A stretch of 61,634 nt of DNA. Source: Candidatus Magasanikiibacteriota bacterium (GTDB taxonomy: Bacteria > Patescibacteriota > Patescibacteriia > Magasanikbacterales > GWA2-37-8). The position numbers and the translations under genes are program-made. Shown piece after piece: positions 6,697 to 45,580 of the stretch (within the stretch, counting starts at the first letter, position 1; every line of letters begins with the position of its first letter). The notes under the pieces are model-generated. The model was given only the letters and a program-made list of their open reading frames with translations. It was not told the DNA's origin and did not search any database. The stretch spans positions 1 through 61,634 of the forward strand of contig SICD01000002.1 in NCBI GenBank assembly GCA_009694865.1, written 5' to 3'.

Positions 6697-6954
6697 GTTA
6701 AGAGTGGATAAGCTTCCTGATTTACAGCTTTTTAATTAACACTCTATTCACGGTTTTTCCCCTGACACGAGACGAGGTGTGCATAAAAAAAATATTTAAA
6801 AATCTTTTCCACCGCGCGCCGTTTTTTCTCCACTTTTCGTAGCGCTTCTTTCCACTGTGTTTTTCTCTAAAACAAAACGTTTTTGCCACTTATCCAGTTC
6901 GCTCACACCCCTTATTACTATTATTAAAATATTTATATATAGTAAACAATAATT
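6681..6954. promoter_or_regulatory. Candidate oriC: DnaA-box cluster plus AT-rich unwinding segment
   Basis: TGTGAATAA (6681), AGTGGATAA (6703), CTATTCACG, TTTTCCACC, TTCTCCACT and TTATCCAGT, followed by an AT-rich tract from about 6914 to 6954 immediately before dnaN. Confidence 0.55.
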
Positions 6955-8082
6955 ATGAGGTTCTCGTGCACCAAGGAAAACTTATCCCTCGCCCTATCAC
7001 TCACTAGTGGTTTAACCGGGAAAAATAGCAACCTACCAATTCTGGGAAGTGTTTTGCTTAAAGCCGATCAGCAAAAAGTTGATGTGATCGCGACTAATTT
7101 AGAGCTGGCTATTGTAGTAAGTGTGCGCGCCAAAATTGACTTGCCGGGCACGTTTACAGTGCCTTCTCGAACCCTCGCTGAATTTGTAGCGCTTCTCCCA
7201 AACGAAAAAGTTGATGTGGAATTAGTGGGAAACGAGCTATTAATACATTGCGCAAAATCAACCACTAAAATTAAAGGCGGACCGGCCGACGAGTTTCCTA
7301 TTATTCCGACTCTCGAGGATGGAAAAGGTTTTTCGGTTGGCAGAAACGATCTTAAATCCGCTTTGTCCCAAGTGCTACCAGCAGTGGCTAAAAACGAAAT
7401 TAGGCCCGAGTTGGCCGGAGTGTTTTTTGGTTTTACCAGCGAAGCCGATGGTGGCAACAAACTTACGTTGGCCTCAACCGACAGCTACCGCTTGGCAGAG
7501 CGGGTGGTGCCGGTGACACAAGCCACCGAGGAGTGTCGGGTGGTAGTGCCTGGTCGCACCGCTCAGGAAATTAATCACTGTTTGCTGGCGAGCGGTGACC
7601 AAGGCGACCCAACGGTTAGCTTGATTTTAACAGACAATCAAATTTCCGTGCGCCACGAAGGGGTGCAAATTATTTCTCGTTTAGTTGAAGGTAATTATCC
7701 CGACTATGCTCAAATTATTCCCACCCAATTTAAAACCACCGCGGTTATCTCGGTTGATAAATTAAACAAAGAGCTTAAGGCGGCAGGAGTTTTTACTACA
7801 AGCGGTGTTAACGCGGCCACCCTGACTTTTAAGCCAACCACCGGGGTTGTAGAAATTACCTCCGCCTCACTTCAAACTGGCGATTATCATTCCGAATTCC
7901 CGGCCGAAATTACCGGCGCCGAAGTCACTGTTTTTCTTAATCACCGCTATGTGCTGGACGGTCTTAGCGCTGCCGGATCCGATACGGTTGAAATTAAAAT
8001 TGTTGACGGTGATAGTCCGTGCCTGATAACAGTGCCGGGAAATAATAATTTTCGTTACGTGGTGATGCCGATTCGGCAATAA
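6955..8082 (+). CDS. dnaN: DNA polymerase III beta subunit (sliding clamp)
   Basis: 375 aa in the canonical position after dnaA. It has a three-domain clamp-like sequence (LASTDSYRLAE, RLVEGNYPDY, MPIR C-terminus). Confidence 0.95.
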   Translation: MRFSCTKENLSLALSLTSGLTGKNSNLPILGSVLLKADQQKVDVIATNLELAIVVSVRAKIDLPGTFTVPSRTLAEFVALLPNEKVDVELVGNELLIHCAKSTTKIKGGPADEFPIIPTLEDGKGFSVGRNDLKSALSQVLPAVAKNEIRPELAGVFFGFTSEADGGNKLTLASTDSYRLAERVVPVTQATEECRVVVPGRTAQEINHCLLASGDQGDPTVSLILTDNQISVRHEGVQIISRLVEGNYPDYAQIIPTQFKTTAVISVDKLNKELKAAGVFTTSGVNAATLTFKPTTGVVEITSASLQTGDYHSEFPAEITGAEVTVFLNHRYVLDGLSAAGSDTVEIKIVDGDSPCLITVPGNNNFRYVVMPIRQ

Positions 8083-8130
8083 TACGAATTACACGGATTG
8101 ACGGGGGCCGATAGGGAAGGAGCAGGGTGC

Positions 8131-8159
8131 TTGACAGACATGTGAAAGTAAAGTATGCT
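8131..8159 (+). promoter_or_regulatory. Sigma70-like promoter, possibly giving a near-leaderless mRNA
   Basis: TTGACA (8131-8136), 17-nt spacer, TATGCT (8154-8159). The preferred ATG at 8166 follows only about 7 nt later. Confidence 0.4.
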
Positions 8160-8165
8160 TTATAT

Positions 8166-9398
8166 ATGCAAGGTAAAAATAAACCACTATTTTCACGTCT
8201 TCTTGAAACAACCCTAACACGCGCTCTGCGTCAACAGCAGTCGTGTCTTATTTTGGGTCCTCGCCAGAGTGGCAAAACTACGCTGGTCAAAAAGGCCTTA
8301 GCGGGCCGGGCGTCAGTTTTGGAGTATCCGCTCCAAAATCCGGCTGTGCGCCAAGGGCTTGAAATCGACCCAGAAAAAATTATTCGCGAGGTTCGGGCTT
8401 TTAAAAAAAATCCTACGGTTTTTATTGATGAGGCGCAGAAGGTTACCACCGTGTTCGATGCGGCGCAATATCTAATTGACGAACATCGAGCGAATTTTAT
8501 ATTGACCGGCTCATCGGCTCGTCAGTTGCGGCGGCGAGGGGCCAATCTTTTACCCGGACGCATCCGTCACTTTTATTTGGATCCTTTGCTTTGGGCTGAG
8601 CTAGGCTATCTTCGTGGTGCGACCATTCAACCCCTGGCAGTTAAAAACATCAATCCACTTTCGACCTACACGTTTTTTGATTCGCTGGTTTATGGAACCC
8701 TGCCGCGGGTAGCGCAGCTTCCTCGCGGCGAGCGCGCCGCGTATTTGCGGTCGTACGCCGAATTATATCTTGAAGAAGAAATCCGCGCCGAGGCGTTGAG
8801 TAGGAACCTTGGCGCTTTTGCCCGATTTTTAGAGTTGGCCGGGGCTGAATCTGGCACCGCGCCTAATTTGAGCAAGCTGTCACAAGAGACCGGCGTGAGT
8901 CAACCAGCTATTAAAGAGTTTTATCGGGTTTTAGAAGATACGCTAATCGCGATTCGCGTTGATCCCTATATCAAAAACGCTCGCAAGCGCATACTGTCTT
9001 CTTCGCGATATTATCTGTTTGATCTTGGGGTGCGTAACGCCGTGGCGCGTTTGCCACTTACCCCGCGTCTTATTAATGCCCAAAAAGGAATTTTGTTCGA
9101 ACACGCCGTGGTACTGGAATTGGTGCGCCGGGTGCGTGCGCTGAATAAAAATTATCGCATCTGCTACTGGCGCACCAGCGGCGGCGCCGAAGTGGATTGC
9201 GTAGTGGACATGGGAGCGCGCCTTATTCCTATTGAAATAAAAGCCTCCGAGCGGGTAAAACTCTCGGAGCTTACTGGACTGAAACATTTTTTGCTTGATT
9301 ATAAAAAATATGCCCGTCATGGCTACGTTATTACTTTAGGCAATCGTCCCGAGCAGTTGGCTGAAAACATAACGGCCGTGCCGTGGAACTATCTTTAA
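8166..9398 (+). CDS. AAA+ ATPase with C-terminal DUF4143-like domain
   Basis: Walker A LGPRQSGKTTL, Walker B VFIDEAQ, and a C-terminal pattern GGAEVDCVV...IPIEIK typical of AAA_14/DUF4143 proteins. The start was trimmed from the track ORF at 8127. Confidence 0.75.
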   Translation: MQGKNKPLFSRLLETTLTRALRQQQSCLILGPRQSGKTTLVKKALAGRASVLEYPLQNPAVRQGLEIDPEKIIREVRAFKKNPTVFIDEAQKVTTVFDAAQYLIDEHRANFILTGSSARQLRRRGANLLPGRIRHFYLDPLLWAELGYLRGATIQPLAVKNINPLSTYTFFDSLVYGTLPRVAQLPRGERAAYLRSYAELYLEEEIRAEALSRNLGAFARFLELAGAESGTAPNLSKLSQETGVSQPAIKEFYRVLEDTLIAIRVDPYIKNARKRILSSSRYYLFDLGVRNAVARLPLTPRLINAQKGILFEHAVVLELVRRVRALNKNYRICYWRTSGGAEVDCVVDMGARLIPIEIKASERVKLSELTGLKHFLLDYKKYARHGYVITLGNRPEQLAENITAVPWNYL

Positions 9399-9478
9399 GA
9401 GCCACCTCATTTTTGTGGCACGCGGTGGAGGAGCTTTGGTGGAAGGGGAAAAAAGAAAGGGAGTTTAAATTATTTCTT

Positions 9479-10927
9479 ATGGAAAATAAAAATCCAAAAT
9501 GGGTGCAAATTGTTAGTCGTCGTTTTACCCCTTTTCGTATTTATATTACGGCCTTGGGGTGCCGCGATGAAGTGCGCAGGTATTTGGGGCAGGGTTGCGA
9601 TTCTTTGGTAATTACCAAAGATGAACTCGGAAGCTATTATTTATTTACGGAAGATACAAAACGTTTGAGTGGATTAGTGCAAAAAAAGGTGCAAGACAGC
9701 CCAAATTTTTCGTCCGAACTCGCGGCAGAATGCCGTCGTGCCTGCGGCGAACTTGTTTACGTCAGCCAAAATAGCGCCGGCAATATTTCTCAACAAACAA
9801 ACCTTGATTTAAAAAATAATTTGCAGGCATATTGTGAGAGTTATATTAAATTTGCCAAGTTTATGGCAATTCCCGTGGCGCTGGAACGTACCCTTACTGC
9901 TAGTATTGAAAACGCTCTTGGCGGCGTAGTCGGCACAGAAAAAGTTAAGGAGAGTTTGGCAAAATTAATGACAACGCCAGCCTTGGCTGATTCCCAGAGA
10001 GAATCAGCCGACCTTTTACGTTTAGCTGTTGGGGTGAAAAAGAACGGTGTCGATGTTAGCGCCCTTGTTCACCATGCTGAAAAATATCGCTGGCTCTCTT
10101 GTTATAATATAGACGAGACGGCCTATGCAAATACATATTTTTCCGATCGTTTGGCCCTGCTGACAACAAAAAATGTTGATGAGCTGGCGAGAGAGCTGAC
10201 AGAAGTGGAGCAAAGACTACCGCACGATATCCAAATCTATCATCAAACAATCGAGGCGCTGTCTTTGCCAACGCAGCAGGCAAAAGAAACTGAATTATTG
10301 CGTGAGTTGGTATATTTGCGAACGTTTCGCGTAGAAATGCAATCCAAGGCTAATTATTATATTCAGCCCCTTTTTGAAGCCGTTGCTAGCCGATTAAAAA
10401 TTTCTTTACGTCACGTCTGCGCGCTTTTCCCAACTGAATTATCCGGGGCTTTGAGTGGTACGCCAGTACCTTCGGAAGCGGATCTAGAAGATCGTTGTCA
10501 AAATTATGCTTTTCGTTACGACGCTAACGGCGTGTTATTTAAAGTTGGTCAAAAAGAAACTGCGGCGATTGAAGAACAGGAGCTGGGAGTACAAATAACC
10601 GATGAAATTGCCGAGCTACGCGGTACTACCGCCTATCAGGGAGTTGTGCGCGGTCAAGTGCGCGTAGTGATTACCAAAGAAGAAATTCAACAATTTAAAA
10701 CCGGAGAAATTTTAGTCACCACCATGACCACGCCGGAGTTTGTACCGGCTATGAAAAAAGCCGCCGCAATTGTGACAAATGAGGGTGGTGTCCTTTGTCA
10801 CGCCGCCATTATGGCTCGGGAATTAAAGGTGCCGTGTGTGATTGCCACCGAGCGAGCTACCACCGTGTTTAAAAATGGCGACCAGGTTATTGTTGATGCT
10901 ACTAATGGCGTTGTAAAAAAAGTATGA
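9479..10927 (+). CDS. PEP-utilising-enzyme mobile (phosphohistidine swivel) domain protein with an unassigned N-terminal region
   Basis: C-terminal motif GEILVTTMTTPEFVPAMKKAAAIVTNEGGVLCHAAIMARELKVPCV. No ATP-grasp motif was recognised in the first roughly 400 aa. The start was trimmed to MENKNPKW. Confidence 0.7.
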   Translation: MENKNPKWVQIVSRRFTPFRIYITALGCRDEVRRYLGQGCDSLVITKDELGSYYLFTEDTKRLSGLVQKKVQDSPNFSSELAAECRRACGELVYVSQNSAGNISQQTNLDLKNNLQAYCESYIKFAKFMAIPVALERTLTASIENALGGVVGTEKVKESLAKLMTTPALADSQRESADLLRLAVGVKKNGVDVSALVHHAEKYRWLSCYNIDETAYANTYFSDRLALLTTKNVDELARELTEVEQRLPHDIQIYHQTIEALSLPTQQAKETELLRELVYLRTFRVEMQSKANYYIQPLFEAVASRLKISLRHVCALFPTELSGALSGTPVPSEADLEDRCQNYAFRYDANGVLFKVGQKETAAIEEQELGVQITDEIAELRGTTAYQGVVRGQVRVVITKEEIQQFKTGEILVTTMTTPEFVPAMKKAAAIVTNEGGVLCHAAIMARELKVPCVIATERATTVFKNGDQVIVDATNGVVKKV

Positions 10928-33527: not shown

Positions 33528-34571
33528 TTAAACGCATTCTGTCCCGCAAAACACTCGCCCATTACTTTCATAACATTGCTCGCAACAAATAAAATGGGCG
33601 TTGCAGCTTTTAAGATTACAGTTGACGTAGTTTTCACTTGAGGCATTGCATTTGTCACAACGGCCGACGATTTCATGGGGCGTGGCGGGTGAGTTGAAGG
33701 CCATAGTAACGCGGCCGTCGAAAACGTAGAGTTTGCCTTTAAAATCTTCTTCGGGATATTTTTCCATGTAGGTAACGATGCCATTTTCCAGTTGGTACAC
33801 GTCGTTGAATCCATTTTGGAGAAGGAAGCCAGAGGCTTTTTCACAGCGCACGCCGCCGGTGCAAACCGTCACCACTGTTTTATTTTTAAGAGGCTCAAGA
33901 ATCGGTAAGATTTGAGACAAGTTGCGGAAATTTTTTAAGGGCGGCAGAATGGAATTTTGGAAAAAACCAATTTTGTGTTCGTAGTCGTTGCGCATGTCCA
34001 CAATATAAAATTCTTTTGGTTCACGAGAGATCAGACATTCCTCAATTCCCCCCTCGCAGGGGGGCACACGGGGGGTGTTGGTCGTTGGTTCGTTTGTTGT
34101 TGAGTGGTGAAGGCCGCCAACACCCCCCACGTCGCCCCCTTGCGAGGGGGGATTAGTAAAGCAGTTGTTACAGACCGTCTTGTTTGATCCATGAATCCAA
34201 CTATGTAGTTCTTCTGCTTTGATGTATTTCCCCGTTATTTGCGTTGGGTTTATATCGGCGTCGCCTAAGTGTCCGCTGACAATTTCTTTGCGTGCTTTAA
34301 TGGAGAGCCGAGGGAAAGCTTCTCCAGTACCCACACTTTTTTTGAAATCAATGTCCGCAAAGCGTAGGTCGAGCCGCGTCGCTTGAATATATTTTTCAGT
34401 ATCGTCTACCAAGCCTTCCACGGTTCCGTTAATGCCTTCTTCGGCAATAATAATACGGCCTTTAAGGTTGAGGCGTTCGCACAGCTCACGCTGAGTAGTG
34501 ACGAGTTCGGCTGGATTATTGATGTGGGTGTATTTGTAGTAGAGGAGAATTTGGAACATATTATGTGTCAT
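33528..34571 (-). CDS. trhO: Rhodanese-domain tRNA uridine(34) hydroxylase-like protein (UPF0176/YceA) carrying an internal Family B repeat
   Basis: N-terminus ILLYYKY...LKGRIIIAEEGINGTVEG, rhodanese active-site loop CTGGVRCEKAS, C-terminal Cys cluster. The insert is encoded by 34047-34151. Confidence 0.85.
   Translation of the reverse strand: MTHNMFQILLYYKYTHINNPAELVTTQRELCERLNLKGRIIIAEEGINGTVEGLVDDTEKYIQATRLDLRFADIDFKKSVGTGEAFPRLSIKARKEIVSGHLGDADINPTQITGKYIKAEELHSWIHGSNKTVCNNCFTNPPSQGGDVGGVGGLHHSTTNEPTTNTPRVPPCEGGIEECLISREPKEFYIVDMRNDYEHKIGFFQNSILPPLKNFRNLSQILPILEPLKNKTVVTVCTGGVRCEKASGFLLQNGFNDVYQLENGIVTYMEKYPEEDFKGKLYVFDGRVTMAFNSPATPHEIVGRCDKCNASSENYVNCNLKSCNAHFICCEQCYESNGRVFCGTECV
34047..34151. 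repeat. Family B element inside the trhO CDS (105 nt)
   Basis: CCCCCCT-CGC-AGGGGGG, a 12-bp stem GGGGGGTGTTGG/CCAACACCCCCC, and CCCCCT-TGCG-AGGGGG. Translated as NPPSQGGDVGGVGGLHHSTTNEPTTNTPRVPPCEGG. Confidence 0.65.
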
Positions 34572-34752: not shown

Positions 34753-35202
34753 TTATTGTTTCATCGGGTGCAAATGGGCGGCCACACCGGCGGCCAGGGC
34801 GATGATGGCGATGTTTTTGATAATGTATTGGCCTTCGAGAGTGGGAATTAAAAAACCATTCCACGTGACGGAACGAAGTAGTATAAGAGGTAGAATGGTT
34901 GTAATCATGTGAACGACAAGAAATAGAATGGCGACTCGTTCGGCGTTGGGAATAAGGAAAAGGGCGCCGATGATCATTTCAAAGATGCCAAAGAGGATGA
35001 TAAAGGTATTAAACGTAATAAAGGGCAAGGTTTTGGTTAACAAATCCGCTACCAGCGGGTTGGCAGGGCTTTGGCCAATTATTTTTAAGGCGCCAAACCA
35101 AAAAAAGACAATAAAAATTGCGGTTCGAGCGAGTGGGCCGTTGTATTTTTTTAAGAAACGGATAATGGTGTGATCGGTTTGAAAAAGGAATTTGAAACTC
35201 AT
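34753..35202 (-). CDS. Membrane protein (DoxX/DUF417-like, tentative)
   Basis: 149 aa, four TM helices. Family assignment rests on weak pattern recognition only. Confidence 0.4.
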   Translation of the reverse strand: MSFKFLFQTDHTIIRFLKKYNGPLARTAIFIVFFWFGALKIIGQSPANPLVADLLTKTLPFITFNTFIILFGIFEMIIGALFLIPNAERVAILFLVVHMITTILPLILLRSVTWNGFLIPTLEGQYIIKNIAIIALAAGVAAHLHPMKQ

Positions 35203-36977: not shown

Positions 36978-37199
36978 TTATTCGGCGTTGGTTTGGTAGG
37001 CGGGCATCTCCTCGGAGATAATGCCATGATCGGGATACTTCTCTTTAATTGCGTCCACAATAATTTTATTGGCAATTAAATCAGCTTCGGTAACCACGTC
37101 CCCGAGATTTTCTTTGGTATATTTAACACCAATTTTTCCGAATTGTTCCAGCACCGCCGCTCCGGATTCAAGTGTAATTTTTTTAATAAATTCTTCCAT
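36978..37199 (-). pseudogene. N-terminal fragment of an inositol-monophosphatase-family gene
   Basis: The 73 aa end with DVVTEADLIANKIIVDAIKEKYPDHGIISEE. The ORF stops just before the expected WxxDPxDGT motif, whereas full-length relatives are about 260 aa. Confidence 0.55.
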
Positions 37200-37290: not shown

Positions 37291-37869
37291 TTATTGTAAT
37301 GGTGCCCAGCTCCAGGGCACATTAAAGGCCTCGCAGTGGATGGTGATAGCGTTATAATCGGTCAGGGTTAGATTGGCCGGGAGTTCGTAGGTTTGTTGGC
37401 CGGTGATGCTTTTGAGTTTGCCCAAATTCAATCCGGCTTTAATATCGGCGCGCGAACTCGGCGCGGTATTTTTGGTAAGATAGATTTGCAGATCCGGTCC
37501 GTTTGGAGTTTTAAAATCATCGCCCAGTACTACGTAATTTTTTCCGTCTTTAATCATTAGGCTCGCGTTTCCATCGGTCATGTAGTTAAGACGCGTAAAC
37601 TTTCCTGCTCGGGCCACGGCGCCAGTAAAATTTTTATCGGCCGTGACCCTAGCGGTCGGGACATTTGAGGCGGACGGATTATTTTTCATTGAGTCAACCA
37701 TTTTTTGGGTTGCGACTTCAACCGGGTCTTCGGCCGGCCCGGCAGTTGGTGATGGTGTGGCGGGGGCGGTTGGGACAGCCGTTGACGACGGGGCGGTTGG
37801 GGCGCTGGCGCAACCAGCGCCCAGGAACAGGAGGGCGGCGAGACTGAAAAGAGCGGTGCGAGTTTTCAT
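37291..37869 (-). CDS. DM13-domain lipoprotein
   Basis: Lipobox LFLGAGC, a Pro/Ala/Thr linker, and a DM13-like pattern GNASLMIKDGKNYVVLGDDFKTPNGPDLQIYL. Confidence 0.7.
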   Translation of the reverse strand: MKTRTALFSLAALLFLGAGCASAPTAPSSTAVPTAPATPSPTAGPAEDPVEVATQKMVDSMKNNPSASNVPTARVTADKNFTGAVARAGKFTRLNYMTDGNASLMIKDGKNYVVLGDDFKTPNGPDLQIYLTKNTAPSSRADIKAGLNLGKLKSITGQQTYELPANLTLTDYNAITIHCEAFNVPWSWAPLQ

Positions 37870-37919
37870 AGAGAATACGTTAATCCCGATTTTGCTTCGC
37901 GCAAAATCGAGGAGAATAA

Positions 37920-40172
37920 TTATTTTAAAAATTTACTTTTCACTAATACATACCCTATCACTAGTGCCGCAATAATGATGACCGCGCCGATATACGTCCC
38001 AATTGATTGGAATTTTCGCTTCGCGGAGATTTTAAAATACCAATAGAGCTGGCCGAGGAGAGCGAGGGCGGTTATGGAAAGGAGGAGATAGCCGGCGGGA
38101 TTTTTAAGGAGATCGGGGTTAATGAACACAAAGTGAAAGATGGCGGAGAGATAAGCGATATATACTAAGCGATGCAAGTTTTTCCATCTCCGGGCGCCCA
38201 GTTTTTCTACTGCCCAATCGGTAGAGGTTAACGCCATTGCCAAAAAAATTGGCAGGGCAATGGAGCCAAAGATAATGGGGTTTTTGATGGGGTTAAAAGA
38301 ATAGTAGGCAAACTGAATTTGCCAGTTAAATAAGTAGTGCGATACGCTTAATACGTGTACCACGACTAGGACCAGGCCAGACACCCCAAGATAGCGCCTA
38401 ATACGCCAGTACTGCGCCAAGCGCGGCCACCATTTAAAAATAGCGCTCGTGAACAGGGCCGCGCCAATGAGTGTCGCGCCGCTTAAAGCCGCGCTGCGCA
38501 GAAGCGCGCCACCAAATTCTTTGGGAATTAAATAATAGTATTGGTATAAAAATTCCAGGGCCCAGAGCACAGTTGGAATTGGCAGAAATATTAGCAGTTG
38601 TTTCCAGTGCCTCGACCGCTGGGTAGAAGAGGAGTTTGGCGCGGGCGCGTCAGTAAGAGCGACTTCAATTTCAATATTGTTACCAACAATGCGGAGCGGA
38701 TATTTGGTTTGGGGGCGAGTAGCCGGCGGACCAACTACGGCACCACTGGTTACGTCAAAGCGCGCGCCATGCAAGGGGCACTGAATAATTTTGCCTTCAA
38801 ATTCTCCATCGCAGAGCGAACCGCCGGCGTGCGAGCAGGTATTATTAATAGCGTGGAACTCGGCGCCGACTTTAAAAATGGCAATTTTTTGTCCTCGCAC
38901 CAGGCGGCAGAGCGGACGGCTGGTAGAGATATCGCTGGTTTTGGCAAGAGCGATCCATTGTTTTACACTCGGCGCTCGGCGCGCGCTTCGGTCCACGACT
39001 GCAATTGTGGTACCAGTGCGAGAGAGTCCCAGCAGTGGCGCGGCTTCGTTGGCCATGTTGTTAATTAGGTCGGCAATTACGCGGGCCGCGAGCGTGCTAA
39101 AAATTAAGCCGTTCCCGCCAAAGCCAGTGGCGACAAATACTTTGTTGTTAGTATGGGGATGAGAGAAGACATAAGGTAGGCCATCTTCGGTATGAAATAA
39201 ACTGCCCGACCACTGGTGTGTAATTTCATGCTTTCCCGCGAGACGCTCCTTAAGAAAACTGTCTAATTTTGGAAATGGCTGATGAGCGCCAGCTTCTTTA
39301 AAATCAACATCAGCGCCGCCGAGAATTATGGTATTCGCATCAATGCGGCGATAGTAAAAATAGGGGTCATAGGTGTCCCAGAACAAGTCATTACTTAATG
39401 GCGGGTTATCGTAACGGGCGGCGGCCACATAGGATACTTTGGGGTGTATTAGCTGTTGGAGTTCGGAAAAATAATCGAGCGGCCGGCCGGTGGCAATGAC
39501 GATTTGTTTGGCTTGGATTGTGCCGGAGGTGGTTATAACGCTTACAAGCCCTTGGCTCAGGTCAAGATCGGTTACCTCGGATTCTTCAAATATTTTTATT
39601 TTATTTTTATCAAGCCGTTCGAGCAGGGCTAGCAGTAATTTGCGGATATTGGTCTTGCCTTCGCCGGAGAATTTAATGGCTTGCGTGTAGGGGGCGGCCA
39701 AGCCAGTGGGACGAGTTACCAGCGAGGCCAGGGGGTCAGCCGCTTGAATTGCTTCCCAGGTAGCAATAAGTTCGGGATTATTCTCGGCGTAGCTGGAATA
39801 ATACGAATCACAGGGAGTAAAATCACAGGCGATGTTTTCTGATTTGATAAGGGTAAATAATTGTTCTTGGGTGGCGCGCGTGGCGGTAAGCAGTTGTTTT
39901 AAGAAATCCGTTCCGTATTTCTCCTTTATCATCGGGAGCGAGGTGTCTGGTACCCGGGTTAAGAAGCCGGTAGTGGCGGCGCTGTCGCCGGTCGCGATGT
40001 GGTTTTTTTCGAGGAGCACCACAGATTTACCCGCCCGCACCAAATTCCAGGCGGTCATGACCCCGGCAATTCCGCCGCCAATAACGCATACGTCAGTTTC
40101 AACACTACCCATGAGCGCGGGGTAACGCTTTTCGTCTGGTACGCTGTCCATCCAGGGGGAAGTTGGTTTCAT
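37920..40172 (-). CDS. Three-module redox protein: FAD-dependent oxidoreductase (DAO) + Rieske [2Fe-2S] + C-terminal ferric-reductase-like 6-TM domain
   Basis: VIGGGIAGVMTAW dinucleotide fold; Rieske CSHAGGSLCDG...CPLHGARF; a C-terminal roughly 230-aa TM region with His pairs (HVLSVSH; HRLVYIAYLSAIFH at 13-residue spacing). Confidence 0.75.
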   Translation of the reverse strand: MKPTSPWMDSVPDEKRYPALMGSVETDVCVIGGGIAGVMTAWNLVRAGKSVVLLEKNHIATGDSAATTGFLTRVPDTSLPMIKEKYGTDFLKQLLTATRATQEQLFTLIKSENIACDFTPCDSYYSSYAENNPELIATWEAIQAADPLASLVTRPTGLAAPYTQAIKFSGEGKTNIRKLLLALLERLDKNKIKIFEESEVTDLDLSQGLVSVITTSGTIQAKQIVIATGRPLDYFSELQQLIHPKVSYVAAARYDNPPLSNDLFWDTYDPYFYYRRIDANTIILGGADVDFKEAGAHQPFPKLDSFLKERLAGKHEITHQWSGSLFHTEDGLPYVFSHPHTNNKVFVATGFGGNGLIFSTLAARVIADLINNMANEAAPLLGLSRTGTTIAVVDRSARRAPSVKQWIALAKTSDISTSRPLCRLVRGQKIAIFKVGAEFHAINNTCSHAGGSLCDGEFEGKIIQCPLHGARFDVTSGAVVGPPATRPQTKYPLRIVGNNIEIEVALTDAPAPNSSSTQRSRHWKQLLIFLPIPTVLWALEFLYQYYYLIPKEFGGALLRSAALSGATLIGAALFTSAIFKWWPRLAQYWRIRRYLGVSGLVLVVVHVLSVSHYLFNWQIQFAYYSFNPIKNPIIFGSIALPIFLAMALTSTDWAVEKLGARRWKNLHRLVYIAYLSAIFHFVFINPDLLKNPAGYLLLSITALALLGQLYWYFKISAKRKFQSIGTYIGAVIIIAALVIGYVLVKSKFLK

Positions 40173-40250
40173 AATTTTTTAAGTGCGGCGGCCACGGCTT
40201 TTTTGGTGATTTTTTTGATGAATTCTTCCATACTATACTATTCTATCTAA

Positions 40251-40625: not shown

Positions 40626-40744
40626 ACTGCTTGCTTATGTAGTTAAATTTTGTTATTGTTAGTCAATAGAATTGCTCGTATCATAGCAGAAATTGATTAG
40701 AATTACCAGATGTTCACATTATTACAGTGTTGGCTCTCAATCAA

Positions 40745-40799
40745 GGGGATTGCCACGCCTGCCTGCCGGTAGGCAGGTCGCTACGCTCCTCGCAATGAC
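40745..40799. repeat. Family A arm upstream of and overlapping the glycosyltransferase start
   Basis: The reverse complement reads GTCATTGCGAGGAGCGTAGCGACCTGCCTACCGGCAGGCAGGCGTGGCAATCCCC. Confidence 0.6.
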
Positions 40800-42114
40800 A
40801 CTTGTGCAGCCAAAAATTCTCATCCTCCACGACTATTTTTTGTATAAAGGCGGCGGGGAGCGGCTGGTGATTAGCCTTGCCAAAAATTTGGGAGCAGATG
40901 TAGCCACGGCGTTTATTGCCAAGGACGCGTTTGACCCGCGTGAGCACGGAATAAAGACGATTGAACTGTATAAAGAAAAACCCTGGTCGCGAGTGCCGGG
41001 GTTTAGGTATTTGCAGGTGCAGTTGTCGTTTTTGTTTAAGACGAAATTTGTACGGAATTATGATGTAGTGATTTATAGTGGGGATTGTTTGGTGGCGGTG
41101 ATAAGGGCGTTGGGGTGGCGTGGATTGTGGCGAACCAGCGAGACCTCTCCCCAACCCTCCCCCCTGCGGTGGGGAGGGGGGCCAATCACACCTCCTCCAC
41201 CGCAGGGGAGGAGGCAGGAGGAGGATTCACATCATCTACGCAACATCGCCTATATGCATTCACCGCCCAGGCATTTGTATGATTTGTACAAGGAACGACT
41301 GGCGGCCTATCCTTGGTGGAAGAAAATTATTTTTGTGCCGTTTGTTTGGTTTAACCGCTGGCGATTTGAGTGGTTGTGTCGGAAATTGGATACAATTGTA
41401 ACTAATTCGGAGAATACGCGTAAAAGAATACAGCAGTATTTGGGTTTAGACTCAGTGGTGGTGTATCCACCGTGCGATACGTTGGTGTTGAAGAATGGGA
41501 GCGAGACCTCTCCCCAACCCTCCCCCCTGCGGTGGGGAGGGGGGCCAATCACACCTCCTCCACCGCAGGGGAGGAGGCAGGAGGAGGACTCGTCACCGGT
41601 CCACCCTTATTTTTTCTCCTGGGCACGATTGTATGATGTTAAGCGCGTGCCAATGATTGTGGAGGCCTTTATTAAAATGCCGGATAAACAGTTGATAGTG
41701 GCATCGGGTGGCCCGGATTTAGAAAAAATCCAAAAAATGGCGGCAGGACATTCGAATATAAAAATTTTAGGTTGGATTAATGACGAGCAGTTGATTGAGT
41801 ATTTAGGGAAATGTTTGGCAACGATTTATATCCCGATGCAGGAAGATTTTGGTATGACGGCGGTGGAGAGTATGCAAGCGGGGAAGCCGGTGATTGGGGT
41901 GGCGGAGGGCGGGCTCCTTGAAATTATTGAAGATAATAAAAATGGATTGATGTTAGAATCAAATTTTACGGTGGATGATTTGTGCGCGGCGGTGCAGTCA
42001 CTTACGCCGGATCGAGCCAGTGTAATGGAGAGTGTGTGCGAAGAAACCGCAAAGAAATTTTCCGAAAAAAGTTTTATTGAGGGGATGAAGAAAGTGATTG
42101 AAGGTGTTTGTTGA
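40795..42114 (+). CDS. GT4-family glycosyltransferase carrying two identical internal Family B repeats
   Basis: Start trimmed to MTLVQPKILILHDYF. C-terminal GT1/GT4 pattern EDFGMTAVESMQAGKPVIG. Inserts lie at 41137-41225 and 41500-41588. Confidence 0.85.
   Translation: MTLVQPKILILHDYFLYKGGGERLVISLAKNLGADVATAFIAKDAFDPREHGIKTIELYKEKPWSRVPGFRYLQVQLSFLFKTKFVRNYDVVIYSGDCLVAVIRALGWRGLWRTSETSPQPSPLRWGGGPITPPPPQGRRQEEDSHHLRNIAYMHSPPRHLYDLYKERLAAYPWWKKIIFVPFVWFNRWRFEWLCRKLDTIVTNSENTRKRIQQYLGLDSVVVYPPCDTLVLKNGSETSPQPSPLRWGGGPITPPPPQGRRQEEDSSPVHPYFFSWARLYDVKRVPMIVEAFIKMPDKQLIVASGGPDLEKIQKMAAGHSNIKILGWINDEQLIEYLGKCLATIYIPMQEDFGMTAVESMQAGKPVIGVAEGGLLEIIEDNKNGLMLESNFTVDDLCAAVQSLTPDRASVMESVCEETAKKFSEKSFIEGMKKVIEGVC
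41137..41225. repeat. Family B element, copy 1 inside the glycosyltransferase CDS
   Basis: 89/89 nt identical to 41500-41588. Hairpins are CCCTCCCC-CCTGCGGT-GGGGAGGG and CCTCCTCC-ACCGCAGG-GGAGGAGG. Confidence 0.85.
41500..41588. repeat. Family B element, copy 2 inside the glycosyltransferase CDS
   Basis: Identical to copy 1, offset by 363 nt (same reading frame). Both encode SETSPQPSPLRWGGGPITPPPPQGRRQEEDS. Confidence 0.85.
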
Positions 42115-43784: not shown

Positions 43785-44345
43785 TTATTGCTTTTTGAGA
43801 AGTACGGACAACTTTTGTTTTATTTTGGCAAGTTTTGGATTAATCACCGCCGCGCAGTAAGCCTGGTCGGGGTTGCGGGCGAAATAATTGTGGTGGTATT
43901 CTTCGGCTTCGTAGAATTTGGTGAGTGGCTCCACAGTAGTGACGGCGTTAACGCCGTCTTTTTGTAACTCCGCAATATATTTTTCCGCGGCGATTTTTTG
44001 TTCATCGTTTGAGCATAAAATGGTGGAGCGATATTGCGTGCCCATGTCATTGCCTTGGCGGTTGAGGGTGGTGGGGTCGTGGCTGCCAAAAAAGACGGTT
44101 AAAATTTCTTCCAATGAAATAATGGCGGGGTCAAATTCTACGCGCACTACTTCGGCATGGCCGGTGGCGCTACCGCAGACGGATTCGTAGGTTGGGTTTG
44201 GTATTGTGCCACCGGCATAACCGGGCACAACGGAAATGACGCCGCGGATCTTTTTTCCGCCCGAGGCGGATCCACCTAGGGTGGAAAAAACGGCTTCGGT
44301 GCACCAGAAGCAGCCGGAGCCGAGGACGATAGATTGGGTGGGCAT
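43785..44345 (-). CDS. msrA: Peptide methionine (S)-sulfoxide reductase
   Basis: [10 protein letters not shown] active-site motif, [28 protein letters not shown]. Confidence 0.92.
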
Positions 44346-44750: not shown

Positions 44751-45580
44751 AGTGGGCGGGCGTTTATATAATGGCGCCGTTCTTTTTTGTTTAATTTTTC
44801 AATCGCGTATCGCAACATCGTGCGGGGCATGGTTGGATGATGTTGATTGAGAAATTTTTTCAGTAGGGGTGTATTGCCATACGCCAGCATTTCGCGTTTG
44901 CCAACTTCACGGAGCATCCAGCCGGTGGCTTTGTGAATTAAATCATGTTTGTCGTTAAGAAGCAAGGTGGCGAGGTGAATGGTTTCTTTGAAACGATTGG
45001 CGCGGATGAAGGCGAAGGTGGCGACGATGGCGATGCGGCGTTCCCAGAGGTTTGGGGAGCGGGCGAGGGTGGTGAGAAGAGCCAGCCGTGACTGAACCCC
45101 CCTCTCTGTCTCCCCCCTTATAGGGGGGAGAGGAATACGTTTGCCCTCCCCTATAAGGGGAGGGACGGAGGGTGGGGTTTTCGTTTCGCGTTCATCGTTC
45201 ACAAGATATTCCCCCACAATCTGCGAGGCGGATGCGTCCACTAAATCCCAATTATTAACGCGTTTGGCATTTTTGAGGTAGAAAGAAAATATTTTTTTCT
45301 TTTGAGATCCAGTACCTGTTTGAAATTGATGTACCAAGATGACGAGCGCGATGAAACGTCCCTCATGAATTTTTGATTTGAGTAGTTTTTGGATGTCGGG
45401 GAGGGGTAGAGTATAAAAATTTTTAGCAATTTTTCTTCGTTCGGGCACGGTGAGACCTAAAAATTTGTCGCCTTCGCCGTATTCGCCATGGCCGGTTTTG
45501 TAAAATCCACTGTATATTTTGGCTTTAGCGGGGTTGGCGTGGGAGTGGAGGATTTTTTTGAGTTGGGATAATGTCGGCAT
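44747..45580 (-). CDS. DNA alkylation repair (AlkD-like HEAT-repeat) protein carrying an internal Family B repeat
   Basis: Start trimmed out of a Family A arm to MPTLSQLKK. Motif VNNWDLVDASASQIVGEYL. The insert is encoded by 45095-45179. Confidence 0.8.
   Translation of the reverse strand: MPTLSQLKKILHSHANPAKAKIYSGFYKTGHGEYGEGDKFLGLTVPERRKIAKNFYTLPLPDIQKLLKSKIHEGRFIALVILVHQFQTGTGSQKKKIFSFYLKNAKRVNNWDLVDASASQIVGEYLVNDERETKTPPSVPPLIGEGKRIPLPPIRGETERGVQSRLALLTTLARSPNLWERRIAIVATFAFIRANRFKETIHLATLLLNDKHDLIHKATGWMLREVGKREMLAYGNTPLLKKFLNQHHPTMPRTMLRYAIEKLNKKERRHYINARPL
45095..45179. repeat. Family B element inside the alkD-like CDS
   Basis: Hairpins TCTCCCCCC-TTATA-GGGGGGAGA and CCCTCCCC-TATAA-GGGGAGGG within an AACCCC...GGGGTT outer stem. 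Translated as TPPSVPPLIGEGKRIPLPPIRGETERG. Confidence 0.65.

What the first reader, a model, noticed from the sequence alone, without database searches (positions are those of the whole stretch)
37291..40172. Candidate trans-membrane electron-transfer module: FAD-oxidoreductase/Rieske/ferric-reductase-TM fusion next to a DM13 lipoprotein
The 750-aa protein joins three modules: a DAO-type flavoprotein (GGGIAGV), a Rieske centre (CSHAGG...CPLHGARF) and a roughly 230-aa six-helix C-terminal domain. That domain carries His pairs, one at the 13-residue spacing typical of bis-haem ferric-reductase/NOX-type domains. The next gene, 50 nt downstream on the same strand, encodes a lipoprotein with a DM13 domain. 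DM13 is a fold proposed to act in extracytoplasmic electron transfer, established mainly from eukaryotic DOMON/cytochrome b561 contexts. The arrangement implies electrons pass from a cytoplasmic substrate through FAD, [2Fe-2S] and haem b to an outward-facing acceptor. That would be notable in an organism that otherwise looks fermentative, with H+-PPase and no respiratory genes in this window.
Basis: partly seen in the sequence, partly recalled or inferred. Interest (0 to 1): 0.65.

Follow-up and report, generated by a model that had tools for sequence, protein, structure and literature searches.

The report
Fused flavin–Rieske–haem membrane conduit with DM13
A likely Patescibacteria (CPR) bacterium from fresh water encodes a single 750-residue protein that joins a cytoplasmic flavin dehydrogenase, an iron-sulfur domain and an MsrQ-like haem membrane domain, followed by a surface DM13 lipoprotein that many relatives carry fused to the same protein, so together they look like a self-contained wire carrying electrons out of a cell that shows no respiratory genes in this window.

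Summary
ORF 40172..37920(-) encodes DAO (E 4.6e-48), Rieske (1.5e-17) and Ferric_reduct (5e-11) domains. ORF 37869..37291(-), 50 nt downstream, encodes a DM13 lipoprotein (9e-17).

- **Ligands:** the Rieske ligands and three TM histidines are invariant in 69/69 relatives.
- **Co-occurrence:** DM13 is fused to the C-terminus in 13/69 relatives. Every close DM13 homolog with usable flank is fused or adjacent to the same 7-TM domain.
- **Topology:** N-in, C-out.

Two corrections are needed. The membrane domain has seven helices, not six. It is also MsrQ/YedZ/STEAP-type rather than NOX-type bis-haem: Arg592 replaces the fourth histidine, giving one outer haem (H606/H680) and an inner flavin-type pocket (R592, R593, W663, H667).

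The modules always occur in the order [DAO]-[Rieske]-FRD7-[DM13]. The subfamily is small (49 cluster representatives at E<=1e-30) and is found in Patescibacteria, DPANN and Thaumarchaeota.

The best reading is a quinone-independent outward electron conduit analogous to MsrQ-MsrP, with new input and output modules. The substrate, the terminal acceptor and the DM13 cofactor remain unknown. I found no publication describing it. It is a new variant of a known kind, of moderate to high interest.

The parts
37920..40172 (-). ORF for the 750-aa DAO-Rieske-7TM ferric-reductase-domain fusion protein (stop codon included)
39066..40094 (-). DAO-type FAD-dependent dehydrogenase/oxidase domain (aa 27-369), with the GGGIAGV dinucleotide-binding motif at aa 32-38. 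It is predicted to be cytoplasmic.
   Evidence: Pfam PF01266 E 4.6e-48. Nearest solved structures are glycine oxidase, L-amino-acid deaminase, D-arginine dehydrogenase and sarcosine oxidase, at about 18% identity.
38658..38960 (-). Rieske-type [2Fe-2S] ferredoxin domain (aa 405-505). The ligands are C446, H448, C465 and H468. It lacks the bc1-type CxC disulfide motif.
   Evidence: Pfam PF00355 E 1.5e-17. Ligands are invariant in 69/69. Best PDB matches are dioxygenase ferredoxins, 2qpz at 2.9e-16.
37923..38609 (-). Seven-helix MsrQ/YedZ-type ferric-reductase domain (aa 522-750). Predicted outer haem ligands are H606 (38355-38357) and H680 (38133-38135). Inner flavin-type pocket residues are R592/R593 (38394-38399), S650, W663 and H667 (38172-38174).
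   Evidence: Pfam PF01794 5.2e-11 and NCBIfam MsrQ 4.5e-12. Residue-for-residue alignment to E. coli MsrQ R77/R78/H91/S135/W147/H151/H164. Invariance in 69/69. Seven helices in the AF2 model of homolog P0002.
37935..37997 (-). Extra seventh TM helix (aa 726-746, with invariant G729). It is absent from E. coli MsrQ and brings the C-terminus to the outside.
   Evidence: In the fused relatives it is followed directly by the linker and DM13.
37870..37919 (-). 50-nt intergenic spacer containing an 8-bp stem-loop GATTTTGC-GCGAA-GCAAAATC (37888-37908). No T-run follows it, so the two genes are probably co-transcribed.
   Evidence: No terminator was called here.
37291..37869 (-). ORF for the 192-aa DM13 lipoprotein (stop codon included)
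37810..37869 (-). Sec-type lipoprotein signal peptide with lipobox-like LGAG-C (Cys20). It has no twin-arginine motif. A Pro/Ala/Thr-rich tether (aa 21-48) follows.
   Evidence: Read directly from the sequence. The Cys column is conserved among standalone homologs. This stretch has low pLDDT in the AF2 model.
37294..37725 (-). Conserved linker helix (aa 49-63) and DM13 beta-sandwich (aa 84-192). Cys179 (37333-37335) is invariant and His178 is specific to this clade.
   Evidence: AF2 pLDDT >=95 over the domain. Cys179 is present in 104/104 members of the wider family, and His178 in 94% of the FRD-linked clade against Trp elsewhere.

Best explanation
The two genes encode a self-contained, quinone-independent conduit that carries electrons outward across the membrane. 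The steps below are inferred, not measured. A cytoplasmic DAO-family flavoenzyme oxidises a small substrate that is still unidentified; amine, amino-acid or hydroxy-acid-like compounds are plausible. Its FAD passes single electrons to the fused low-potential Rieske-type [2Fe-2S] domain. That domain is tethered by a flexible linker to the cytoplasmic face of a 7-TM MsrQ/YedZ-type domain. There the electrons enter through an inner flavin-type pocket (R592, R593, S650, W663, H667) and reach a single haem b near the outer face (H606/H680). The extra seventh helix brings the chain outside. In this genome the DM13 lipoprotein, and in many relatives a C-terminally fused DM13 domain, sits there as the extracytoplasmic partner, built around an invariant Cys with a neighbouring His. 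DM13 then either performs or mediates a reductive reaction on the cell surface. The logic matches MsrQ feeding periplasmic MsrP, but the input (a fused dehydrogenase instead of Fre or quinol) and the output (DM13 instead of a molybdoenzyme) are both different. Because DM13 is exported by Sec or a signal-anchor in unfolded form, its active site should be a thiol, a metal ion or a haem loaded outside the cell. It should not be a cofactor assembled in the cytoplasm. Outward electron flow dissipates membrane potential, so the purpose is more likely surface redox chemistry (repair of oxidised envelope proteins, or metal reduction) or disposal of reducing equivalents than energy conservation.
For: Domain identities. 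Cofactor ligands (C446/H448/C465/H468, R592/R593, H606, W663, H667, H680) are invariant in 69/69 relatives. The domain aligns residue for residue with E. coli MsrQ at R77/R78/H91/S135/W147/H151/H164. The roles of those residues were established experimentally or by modelling in PMC12525009, and the Arg-for-His signature is described in PMC3591440. Topology: no signal peptide, 7 TM segments, loop K/R counts of 13 versus 3, and an AF2 model of the natural four-domain fusion P0002 (pLDDT 91.3) showing 7 TM helices, a linker helix and a beta-rich DM13 domain. Functional linkage of DM13 rests on several observations. Thirteen of 69 homologs are DAO-Rieske-FRD-DM13 fusions. FRD-DM13 fusions of about 397 aa occur in Thaumarchaeota. 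Adjacent FRD/DM13 gene pairs occur in either order. No close-clade DM13 with adequate flank lacks the 7-TM FRD. The module order is always [DAO]-[Rieske]-FRD7-[DM13]; the census of 72 representatives gives 46 FRD7 alone, 14 DAO-Rieske-FRD7, 3 with DM13 added, 6 FRD7-DM13 and 3 Rieske-FRD7. Split versions exist with DAO or Rieske as neighbouring genes (L010, L098). In the permuted class B (DAO-6TM-Rieske), both soluble domains end up on the same, cytoplasmic, side.
Against: There is no experimental evidence of any kind, and only DNA metagenome runs hold the locus. Seven distinct class-A loci have no DM13 within 5-10 kb where the contig allows, and no consistent alternative partner was found there. 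The membrane domain may therefore work without DM13. One fused relative (P0047) has Phe-Ser in place of His-Cys in its DM13. DM13 has no solved homolog and no identified cofactor; the best structural matches are weak Cu,Zn-SOD-like sandwiches (E 0.015, TM<0.5), and the SOD metal ligands (six His plus one Asp, from general knowledge) have no counterpart among the conserved DM13 positions. The pTM of the fusion model is only 0.60 and no coordinates were available, so neither inter-domain distances nor DM13 docking could be checked. The measured MsrQ potentials (FMN -340 mV, haem about -250 mV; PMC12525009) would make transfer from a typical DAO flavin energetically uphill unless they are tuned differently here. 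The direction of flow is inferred. Whether this organism can make or acquire haem is unknown.
Confidence: 0.58

Rival explanations
1. The conduit is the same, but DM13 is not a redox carrier. The outer haem of the membrane domain reduces an external substrate directly (Fe3+, Cu2+ or O2, as in STEAP, FRE or NOX). DM13 acts as an accessory that binds or presents the substrate or product, or that stabilises the complex.
For: Most class-A representatives and most standalone FRD7 proteins have no fused DM13: 14 versus 3, and 46 versus 6. Seven distinct loci have none nearby. P0047 lacks the His-Cys dyad. STEAP-type domains reduce metals directly at the haem (PMC3591440). One homolog (P0010) lies beside a copper P-type ATPase/HMA/CsoR cluster.
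Against: Cys179 is invariant in 104/104 members of the wider family, and the dyad is about 95% conserved in the FRD-linked clade. DM13 of this clade is never found away from FRD7. Repeated independent fusion and fission at the exact point where electrons would leave the membrane fits a direct partner.
Confidence: 0.2
2. Electron flow is reversed. DM13 and the haem domain take up electrons from an external donor and deliver them, via Rieske and FAD, to reduce a cytoplasmic substrate.
For: The cofactor chain is in principle reversible. MsrQ-type haem and FMN potentials are low (PMC12525009). CPR and DPANN organisms are often episymbionts that could tap external reductants (general knowledge).
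Against: All characterised FRD-superfamily members move electrons outward (PMC3591440, PMC12525009). Characterised DAO-family enzymes act as substrate dehydrogenases or oxidases, as do the nearest structures found. Inward flow would need a very low-potential external donor.
Confidence: 0.08
3. This is a sensing or regulatory pair rather than a metabolic conduit. The DM13 lipoprotein would modulate a membrane protein, as S. aureus SaeP (DM13-like) does with DoxX-family SaeQ and the kinase SaeS, with the redox domains reporting cellular redox state.
For: The SaeP/SaeQ precedent (PMC7189620). A distant DM13 gene follows a DUF417 membrane-protein gene in L127, and the window has a weak DUF417-like ORF 2 kb away.
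Against: No kinase, regulator or output domain lies in or next to any of the loci examined. A complete catalytic cofactor chain is conserved.
Confidence: 0.05
4. The adjacency is fortuitous and the two proteins are functionally unrelated.
For: DM13 is not adjacent in several homologous loci. The cassette sits in a rearranged region bracketed by fragments of an IMPase-family gene.
Against: There are multiple independent fusions and conserved gene pairs across bacteria and archaea.
Confidence: 0.02

Closest known systems
MsrQ (YedZ) with MsrP of E. coli, the periplasmic methionine-sulfoxide reductase system
   Same: The membrane domain has the same fold family (PF01794; NCBIfam MsrQ 4.5e-12; 26% identity). 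All diagnostic residues match: Arg77/Arg78/Ser135/Trp147/His151 (FMN pocket) and His91/His164 (single outer haem) correspond to R592/R593/S650/W663/H667 and H606/H680 (PMC12525009). The logic is also the same: a small haem membrane protein feeds a dedicated extracytoplasmic partner encoded next to it.
   Different: The score is far below the MsrQ equivalog cut-off (45.9 versus 130 bits). There is an extra seventh helix. The electron input is a covalently fused DAO-Rieske dehydrogenase rather than Fre or quinones. The partner is a Sec-exported DM13 lipoprotein, not the Tat-exported molybdoenzyme MsrP, and no msrP is among the neighbouring genes annotated. The hosts are CPR bacteria and DPANN or Thaumarchaeota archaea.
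STEAP metalloreductases (eukaryotic YedZ-related proteins)
   Same: The Arg-for-His signature on TM3 is shared, together with a single outer haem and an inner flavin site. A cytoplasmic dehydrogenase domain is fused N-terminally to the TM domain (PMC3591440, PMC12525009).
   Different: STEAP2-4 use an F420H2:NADP+-oxidoreductase-like NADPH domain, have Gln where this protein has His667, have six helices, and have no Rieske and no DM13. They reduce Fe3+/Cu2+ directly.
NOX/DUOX and bacterial NOX (SpNOX)
   Same: They belong to the FRD superfamily, move electrons outward, and have a fused cytoplasmic dehydrogenase. DUOX also adds a seventh helix to place an extra domain outside. SpNOX is the nearest solved sequence to the TM region, but only weakly (E 0.33).
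   Different: NOX has four haem histidines and two haems, and its dehydrogenase (FAD_binding_8/NAD_binding_1) is C-terminal. Here the fourth His is Arg592. The sister class B (DAO-6TM-Rieske) does have the four-His pattern, but the window protein does not.
Soluble DAO-Rieske proteins (B. subtilis YhfW type)
   Same: They share the same two-domain DAO plus C-terminal Rieske module. Soluble relatives of about 515 aa are 44-46% identical over the first two thirds of the window protein.
   Different: They have no membrane domain, and YhfW itself is of unknown function (PMC7317962).
Eukaryotic DM13-DOMON proteins (Skeletor, Knickkopf) and cytochrome b561-DOMON chains
   Same: The DM13 domain with its conserved Cys lies outside the cell and is associated with a transmembrane or haem-based electron-transfer module. 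Its function is unproven and is predicted to be redox (PMC4140639).
   Different: There is no DOMON and no b561 here. The membrane partner is an FRD/MsrQ-type domain. The prokaryotic FRD-linked clade has its own signature, HC[RKE]AFNVPW.
S. aureus SaeP/SaeQ
   Same: A DM13-like surface lipoprotein is paired with a small polytopic membrane protein (PMC7189620).
   Different: SaeQ is a DoxX-family protein, not an FRD. That pair modulates a histidine kinase, and no cofactor chain is involved.

Membership tests
Ferric reductase domain superfamily (Pfam PF01794) | Profile match above the curated gathering score | tested here: met
   43.1 bits against a cut-off of 28, E 5.2e-11, aa 577-677
YedZ/MsrQ/STEAP subgroup of the FRD superfamily | The first canonical (inner, TM3) haem histidine is replaced by a conserved arginine, while the outer-haem histidines on TM3 and TM5 are kept (PMC3591440) | tested here: met
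   R592 lies 14 residues before H606. H606 and H680 are invariant in 69/69 and align to MsrQ R77, H91 and H164.
YedZ/MsrQ/STEAP subgroup of the FRD superfamily | MsrQ inner FMN-pocket residues Arg77, Arg78, Ser135, Trp147 and His151 (PMC12525009) | tested here: met
   R592, R593, S650, W663 and H667 are identical in the alignment and invariant in the family. Leu131 corresponds to M646.
MsrQ proper (NCBIfam NF003831 equivalog; MsrPQ system) | Score above the equivalog cut-off | tested here: not met
   45.9 bits against a cut-off of 130
MsrQ proper (NCBIfam NF003831 equivalog; MsrPQ system) | An adjacent gene for the periplasmic molybdoenzyme MsrP | tested here: not met
   The neighbours are DM13, an IMPase fragment, small membrane proteins and a pyrophosphatase. 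No molybdoenzyme appears among the ORFs annotated in the window or in the related loci examined.
MsrQ proper (NCBIfam NF003831 equivalog; MsrPQ system) | Six transmembrane helices | tested here: not met
   There are seven helices. E. coli MsrQ ends after TM6 in the alignment.
NOX-type bis-haem FRD | Four conserved haem-ligating histidines, spaced 14 on TM3 and 13 on TM5 | tested here: not met
   Only three are present and the fourth position is Arg592. The sister class B has all four in 33/33.
FRD superfamily (any member) | Actual binding of haem b, and of flavin in the inner pocket | not testable with these tools
   This needs spectroscopy of the purified protein.
DAO family FAD-dependent oxidoreductases (PF01266) | A full-length profile match and a GxGxxG dinucleotide-binding motif | tested here: met
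   165 bits against 27.9, covering profile positions 1-353 of 353, with GGGIAGV at aa 32-38
Substrate-defined DAO subfamilies (ThiO, SoxB, pipecolate oxidase, D-amino-acid dehydrogenase, GlpO and others) | Score above the NCBIfam equivalog or subfamily cut-off | tested here: not met
   The best are AmaA at 84 bits against 600 and ThiO at 79 against 251. All fall far below their cut-offs.
Rieske [2Fe-2S] domain (PF00355), low-potential ferredoxin type | CxH...CxxH ligand set, without the bc1-type extra disulfide cysteines | tested here: met
   C446-S-H448 and C465-P-L-H468 are invariant in 69/69. The second motif reads CPLH rather than the bc1-type CxCH, so the second disulfide cysteine is absent. 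The closest PDB sequences are dioxygenase ferredoxins.
DM13 domain (PF10517) | Profile match above the gathering score, and the conserved cysteine | tested here: met
   62.1 bits against 25. Cys179 aligns with a Cys present in 104/104 wider-family members.
DM13 domain (PF10517) | Association with a DOMON domain, as in the founding animal proteins | tested here: not met
   No DOMON hit was found in either protein or in any homolog architecture listed.
Bacterial lipoprotein | A signal peptide ending in a lipobox with an invariant Cys | tested here: inconclusive
   LFLGAG-C20 fits the loose lipobox pattern, and the Cys column is shared by most standalone homologs, several of which have canonical L-x-A-G-C. 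No dedicated SPase II predictor was available.

The most novel reading that the evidence does not exclude
DM13 would be a previously unrecognised extracytoplasmic redox domain, with either a Cys/His-ligated metal or haem site or a thiol-based site. It would be the terminal reductase of a minimal one- or two-protein, quinone-free electron-export chain used by ultra-small CPR bacteria and DPANN or Thaumarchaeota archaea. That chain would dump or deploy reducing equivalents from cytoplasmic substrate oxidation onto external targets: oxidised surface proteins, metals, or possibly host-derived acceptors. By extension, the animal DM13-DOMON proteins (Skeletor, Knickkopf) would work the same way downstream of b561/DOMON haem carriers.
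Probability: 0.2. Interest if true: 0.8.

Novelty: new variant of a known kind. Interest (0 to 1): 0.6.

Why it matters
DM13 has been labelled an 'electron transfer' domain since 2007, purely because it is associated with DOMON in animal proteins. Its function and cofactor are unknown, and it has no solved structure detectable here (PMC4140639).

This locus and its relatives give DM13 a direct prokaryotic redox partner that is fused or adjacent to it. The cofactor chain on the other side of the membrane can be read off from conserved ligands. That makes the DM13 question testable with two small genes expressible in E. coli.

It also shows how organisms such as CPR and DPANN, which are generally reported to lack quinones and respiratory chains (general knowledge, not tested here), could still power extracytoplasmic redox chemistry. 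They would do so by hard-wiring a dehydrogenase and an Fe-S relay onto an MsrQ-type haem domain.

Finally, the strict module order [DAO]-[Rieske]-FRD7-[DM13], seen in every fusion and fission state, is a clean natural example of a modular electron wire. The paired class A (MsrQ-like, three His plus Arg) and class B (NOX-like, four His) architectures offer a natural comparison of mono-haem/flavin and bis-haem solutions.

Tried and rejected
1. **NOX-type bis-haem reading.** Rejected: the fourth histidine is Arg592 and H612 is not conserved.
2. **True MsrPQ system.** Rejected: the score is below the equivalog cut-off, there is no MsrP, and there is an extra helix.
3. **DM13 as a Cu,Zn-SOD relative.** There is only a weak fold-level resemblance (best E 0.015, TM<0.5, about 10% identity), and none of the SOD metal ligands appears among the conserved positions. 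Not accepted.
4. **Sequence and profile searches of the PDB for DM13.** Nothing was found.
5. **An alternative conserved extracytoplasmic partner in DM13-less loci.** The neighbours are unrelated: a cyclophilin lipoprotein, an acyltransferase, a DUF5667 protein, TspO, a peroxiredoxin, MauE and a copper ATPase cluster. There is no pattern.
6. **Genome-collection scan with the full-length alignment.** It was swamped by Rieske-only hits, and only about 17 of the 80 loci were relevant.
7. **Substrate assignment for the DAO domain.** All specific NCBIfam models score far below their cut-offs, and structural neighbours are only about 18% identical.
8. **Expression evidence.** Only DNA metagenome runs hold the locus.
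9. **Cassette mobility.** No contig in four runs joins the flanks without the cassette.
10. **Promoter and terminator scans.** Counts were not above shuffled expectation.
11. **ApbE-type flavinylation of DM13.** Considered, but no ApbE or FMN_bind gene occurs in any locus, and by eye the T-x-G-x-A-[ST] stretch does not fit the flavinylation motif as I recall it.
12. **Inter-domain distances and DM13 docking.** The AF2 model coordinates are not exposed, so these could not be measured.

Full report
**1. What is in the sequence**

On the minus strand, ORF 40172..37920 encodes a 750-aa protein. After a 50-nt spacer, ORF 37869..37291 encodes a 192-aa protein.

Pfam assigns three domains to the first protein:
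- DAO at aa 27-369 (E 4.6e-48, full-length profile match)
- Rieske at aa 405-492 (E 1.5e-17)
- Ferric_reduct PF01794 at aa 577-677 (E 5.2e-11, above the gathering score)

The second protein hits DM13 PF10517 at aa 91-191 (E 9.1e-17). NCBIfam adds weak matches of the C-terminal region to MsrQ (4.5e-12) and to the YedZ-like C-terminus of MamZ. No substrate-specific DAO model comes near its cut-off.

The DM13 protein begins with MKTRTALFSLAALLFLGAGC, followed by a Pro/Ala/Thr-rich tether. This is a Sec-type lipoprotein signal with no twin-arginine motif, and the Cys column is shared by most standalone homologs.

The arrangement is covered by contigs from four freshwater metagenome runs in two studies.

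**2. Organism and context**

The window carries dnaA next to a GC-skew switch, an M23/LysM peptidase, an H+-pyrophosphatase, ribonucleotide reductase and AdoHcy hydrolase. This fits a bacterium, and no respiratory genes were seen among the ORFs I annotated.

The nearest homologs of the fusion (48-52% identity) come from Patescibacteria MAGs such as Kerfeldbacteria, Microgenomates and Peribacteria. More distant full-length homologs (39-45% identity) come from DPANN archaea (Micrarchaeota, Aenigmarchaeota, Bilamarchaeum).

The immediate neighbours give no functional clue. They are a soluble pyrophosphatase, small membrane proteins, a PIN protein, a rhodanese-family protein, glycosyltransferases and MsrA 3.6 kb away.

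**3. The membrane domain is MsrQ-type with seven helices**

Hydropathy finds seven segments after the Rieske domain. The AF2 model of the 52%-identical natural four-domain homolog P0002 (mean pLDDT 91.3) has seven TM helices.

In an alignment of 69 full-length relatives, the following residues are invariant:
- C446, H448, C465 and H468 (the Rieske ligands)
- R592, R593, H606, S650, D652, W663, K664, H667, Y671 and H680 (TM domain)
- G729 (in TM7)

I fetched the authentic E. coli msrQ gene and aligned it. MsrQ Arg77, Arg78, His91, Ser135, Trp147, His151 and His164 correspond exactly to R592, R593, H606, S650, W663, H667 and H680.

According to PMC12525009, His91 and His164 ligate the single outer haem b. 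Arg77, Arg78, Trp147 and His151 form the cytoplasm-facing FMN pocket, and in NOX/DUOX Arg77 is the histidine that ligates the inner haem. PMC3591440 makes this Arg-for-His replacement the signature of the YedZ/STEAP branch.

The window protein is therefore of the MsrQ/YedZ/STEAP type. It is not an MsrQ ortholog for three reasons:
- It scores 45.9 bits against a 130-bit cut-off.
- It has an extra helix.
- It has no MsrP partner.

**4. Topology**

Four lines of evidence agree.
- There is no N-terminal signal; the Rossmann motif starts at residue 27.
- The loops predicted to be inside carry 13 Lys/Arg, against 3 in the outside loops.
- The domain is homologous to MsrQ, whose Arg-Arg pocket faces the cytoplasm and whose haem faces the periplasm.
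- DM13 carries an export signal when it is a separate protein, and it follows the odd, seventh helix when it is fused.

The permuted sister architecture, class B (DAO-6TM-Rieske, about 730 aa), has an even number of helices between the two soluble domains. This places both on the same side. Class B has four invariant histidines spaced 14 and 13 apart in 33/33 sequences, which is the NOX-type pattern.

**5. Linkage with DM13**

Thirteen of the 69 class-A homologs are about 905-945 aa long and carry DM13 at the C-terminus after TM7.

Searching with the DM13 protein and then with its alignment gave these results:
- One locus has the same split arrangement as the window, with the fusion followed by DM13 (L008).
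- Bare 250-283-aa 7-TM FRD genes lie next to DM13 in either order, in clearly archaeal contexts (L009, L010, L011).
- FRD-DM13 fusions of about 397 aa are labelled Thaumarchaeota or Nitrososphaerales.

Every DM13 of the close clade (>=46% identity, signature HC[RKE]AFNVPW) with usable flank is fused or adjacent to the 7-TM FRD. Four short contigs were indeterminate. DM13 proteins at <=40% identity showed no such neighbour. My FRD7 HMM would miss NOX-type FRDs, so that negative applies only to MsrQ-type domains.

Conversely, seven distinct class-A loci have no DM13 within 5-10 kb where the contig allows (L014 and L017 are shorter on one side). Their neighbours show no common alternative partner. 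So DM13 of this clade depends on FRD7, but FRD7 does not depend on DM13.

**6. Census**

I ran an exhaustive phmmer search of 1.84 billion cluster representatives with the TM region alone. It found 49 proteins at E<=1e-30 and 98 at E<=1e-10. This is a small subfamily.

Classifying the best 72 gave the following:

| Architecture | Count |
|---|---|
| FRD7 alone (some are fragments) | 46 |
| DAO-Rieske-FRD7 | 14 |
| DAO-Rieske-FRD7-DM13 | 3 |
| FRD7-DM13 | 6 |
| Rieske-FRD7 | 3 |

The standalone and FRD-DM13 forms checked keep the RR...H...W...H...H motif. Split versions with DAO or Rieske as adjacent genes also exist (L010, L098).

The order is always [DAO]-[Rieske]-FRD7-[DM13]. That is the order expected for electrons moving from a cytoplasmic substrate to an outside acceptor.

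**7. The individual modules**

*DAO.* By sequence and by fold, the nearest solved proteins are glycine oxidase, L-amino-acid deaminase, D-arginine dehydrogenase and sarcosine oxidases, at about 18% identity. No substrate can be assigned.

The soluble DAO-Rieske unit exists on its own at about 515 aa and 44-46% identity. It corresponds to the B. subtilis YhfW type, whose function is still unknown (PMC7317962).

*Rieske.* It most resembles low-potential dioxygenase ferredoxins and lacks the bc1-type disulfide motif.

*DM13.* The AF2 model of the window protein (pLDDT 88.7, and >=95 over aa 84-192) is a beta-sandwich preceded by a conserved helix at aa 49-63. No solved structure matches it significantly. 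The top hits are Cu,Zn-SOD sandwiches at E 0.015-0.1 and TM<0.5, and PDB sequence and profile searches find nothing.

Cys179 is invariant in 104/104 wider-family members. His178 is specific to the FRD-linked clade and is Trp elsewhere. Position 96 is Tyr here but His in the wider family. One fused relative, P0047, has Phe-Ser instead of His-Cys.

Because DM13 is exported by Sec or a signal-anchor mechanism, I infer that its site is a thiol, a metal or an externally loaded haem. It is unlikely to be a cofactor assembled in the cytoplasm.

**8. Mechanism**

My best-supported reading (confidence about 0.58) is a quinone-independent outward electron conduit. The path is substrate, FAD (DAO), [2Fe-2S] (Rieske), inner flavin-type pocket, outer haem b, DM13, then an unknown external acceptor.

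What is shown:
- the domain identities
- invariance of the ligands
- residue equivalence with MsrQ
- the seven-helix N-in/C-out topology (by prediction)
- the genetic linkage with DM13

What is inferred:
- actual cofactor occupancy
- the direction of flow
- DM13 as an electron acceptor
- the physiological role

Outward electron export is electrogenic in the dissipative direction. I therefore favour surface redox chemistry (repair or metal reduction) or redox balancing over energy conservation.

The main rival (about 0.2) is that the haem reduces an external substrate directly and DM13 is only an accessory. This would explain the many DM13-less members. Reverse flow, a SaeP-like regulatory role and chance adjacency are less likely.

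**9. Comparison with the literature and novelty**

PMC3591440 (2013) catalogued a bacterial FRD architecture containing Rieske and a flavin module, without characterising it, and does not mention DM13. PMC8238504 describes MsrQ-like extracytosolic systems linked to flavinylation and mentions neither DM13 nor Rieske.

Searches for DM13 returned only insect Knickkopf/Skeletor work, S. aureus SaeP and incidental annotations. Public annotations call these proteins 'FAD-dependent oxidoreductase' or 'DM13 domain-containing protein'.

I therefore rate it a new variant of a known kind: an MsrQ/YedZ-type transmembrane electron carrier with a novel fused input and a novel output partner. I found no prior description in the literature available to me.

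**10. Verdict**

I score interest at 0.6. The locus turns the long-standing 'DM13 = electron transfer?' conjecture into a directly testable two-gene system. It also suggests how CPR and DPANN cells might power extracytoplasmic redox reactions. However, the substrate, the acceptor and the DM13 chemistry remain unknown, and nothing has been shown experimentally.

Noticed in passing
window 40169-40231 (-) and 36978-37199 (-); L016 9017-9853: The two-gene cassette is bracketed by two copies of the 5' end of an inositol-monophosphatase-family gene. One is a 20-codon ORF, MEEFIKKITKKAVAAALKKL*, whose stop overlaps the fusion's ATG (ATGA). The other is a 73-codon truncated N-terminal fragment, MEEFIKKITLESGAAV..., just after DM13. 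Their first 27 nt differ only at four third-codon positions. The fragment is 49% identical (E 1e-16) to an intact IMPase gene that directly precedes the fusion homolog in L016, and an Inositol_P gene also lies 2.3 kb upstream of the archaeal FRD-DM13 gene in L126. This suggests a rearrangement or insertion at an ancestral IMPase-fusion neighbourhood. No population variant lacking the cassette was seen.
   Followed up: partly
window 41137-41228 and 41500-41591; 34044-34154; 45095-45179: GC-rich palindromic elements of about 90-110 nt are inserted in frame inside coding genes. Two 99%-identical 92-nt copies lie in the glycosyltransferase ORF 40693..42114, each adding the peptide ...SETSPQPSPLRWGGGPITPPPPQGRRQEEDS... 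One inverted repeat lies inside the rhodanese/UPF0176 ORF and another inside the DNA-alkylation-repair ORF.
   Followed up: partly
P0074, P0082 and 31 further proteins; loci L018, L019, L021, L022, L025: A sister architecture (class B, about 730 aa) has the order DAO-6TM-Rieske. Its membrane domain has four invariant histidines (spacings 14 and 13), the NOX-type bis-haem pattern, instead of the MsrQ-type pattern. No DM13 is associated with it.
   Followed up: partly
window 37888-37908 (-): An 8-bp stem-loop, GATTTTGC-GCGAA-GCAAAATC, lies in the 50-nt spacer between the fusion and DM13 genes. It is not followed by a T-run. It could be an mRNA stability or processing element, or one that tunes translation.
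   Followed up: no
L005/L006 (Patescibacteria contig, 428 kb) 7267-9868: Next to a DM13-less fusion homolog (P0058) lie a MauE-family membrane protein, a complete NOX-like gene (Ferric_reduct + FAD_binding_8 + NAD_binding_1) and a cytochrome b5 gene. At least some CPR genomes therefore encode several haem-dependent membrane redox proteins.
   Followed up: no
L001/L002 7234-12244: The fusion homolog P0010 converges on a copper-homeostasis cluster: a P-type ATPase with HMA, HMA chaperones, a DsbD_2 protein and a CsoR-type repressor. This is a single case, but it is compatible with a metal-reductase role.
   Followed up: no
window 34753-35202 (-); L127 4114-5870: A 149-aa membrane ORF 2 kb downstream of DM13 has a weak DUF417 hit (E 2.7e-4). 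In an unrelated contig (L127), a DUF417 gene sits directly upstream of a distant 289-aa DM13 gene. Together with S. aureus SaeP (DM13-like) and SaeQ (DoxX family), this hints that other DM13 clades pair with small membrane proteins of that kind (PMC7189620).
   Followed up: no
window 43785-44345 (-); L010 8331-8717; L009 3355-4416; L016 7369-8688: Oxidative-repair or thiol-redox genes recur loosely near these systems. MsrA lies 3.6 kb from the window cassette. SelR/MsrB lies near the archaeal FRD-DM13 pair. A DsbA/thioredoxin-like gene lies directly upstream of DM13 in L009. A peroxiredoxin and TspO lie near the fusion in L016. Each is a single observation and none is conserved.
   Followed up: no
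window 5305-6696 and about 6000-9000: dnaA lies where GC skew turns from about zero or negative to strongly positive. The chromosomal replication origin is probably near the left end of the window.
   Followed up: no
window 39967-39999: In all four metagenome runs, a 33-nt stretch inside the DAO N-terminal region also matches an unrelated, longer contig with unlike sequence on both sides. This is probably a conserved FAD-motif stretch in a paralog or in another organism's homolog.
   Followed up: no
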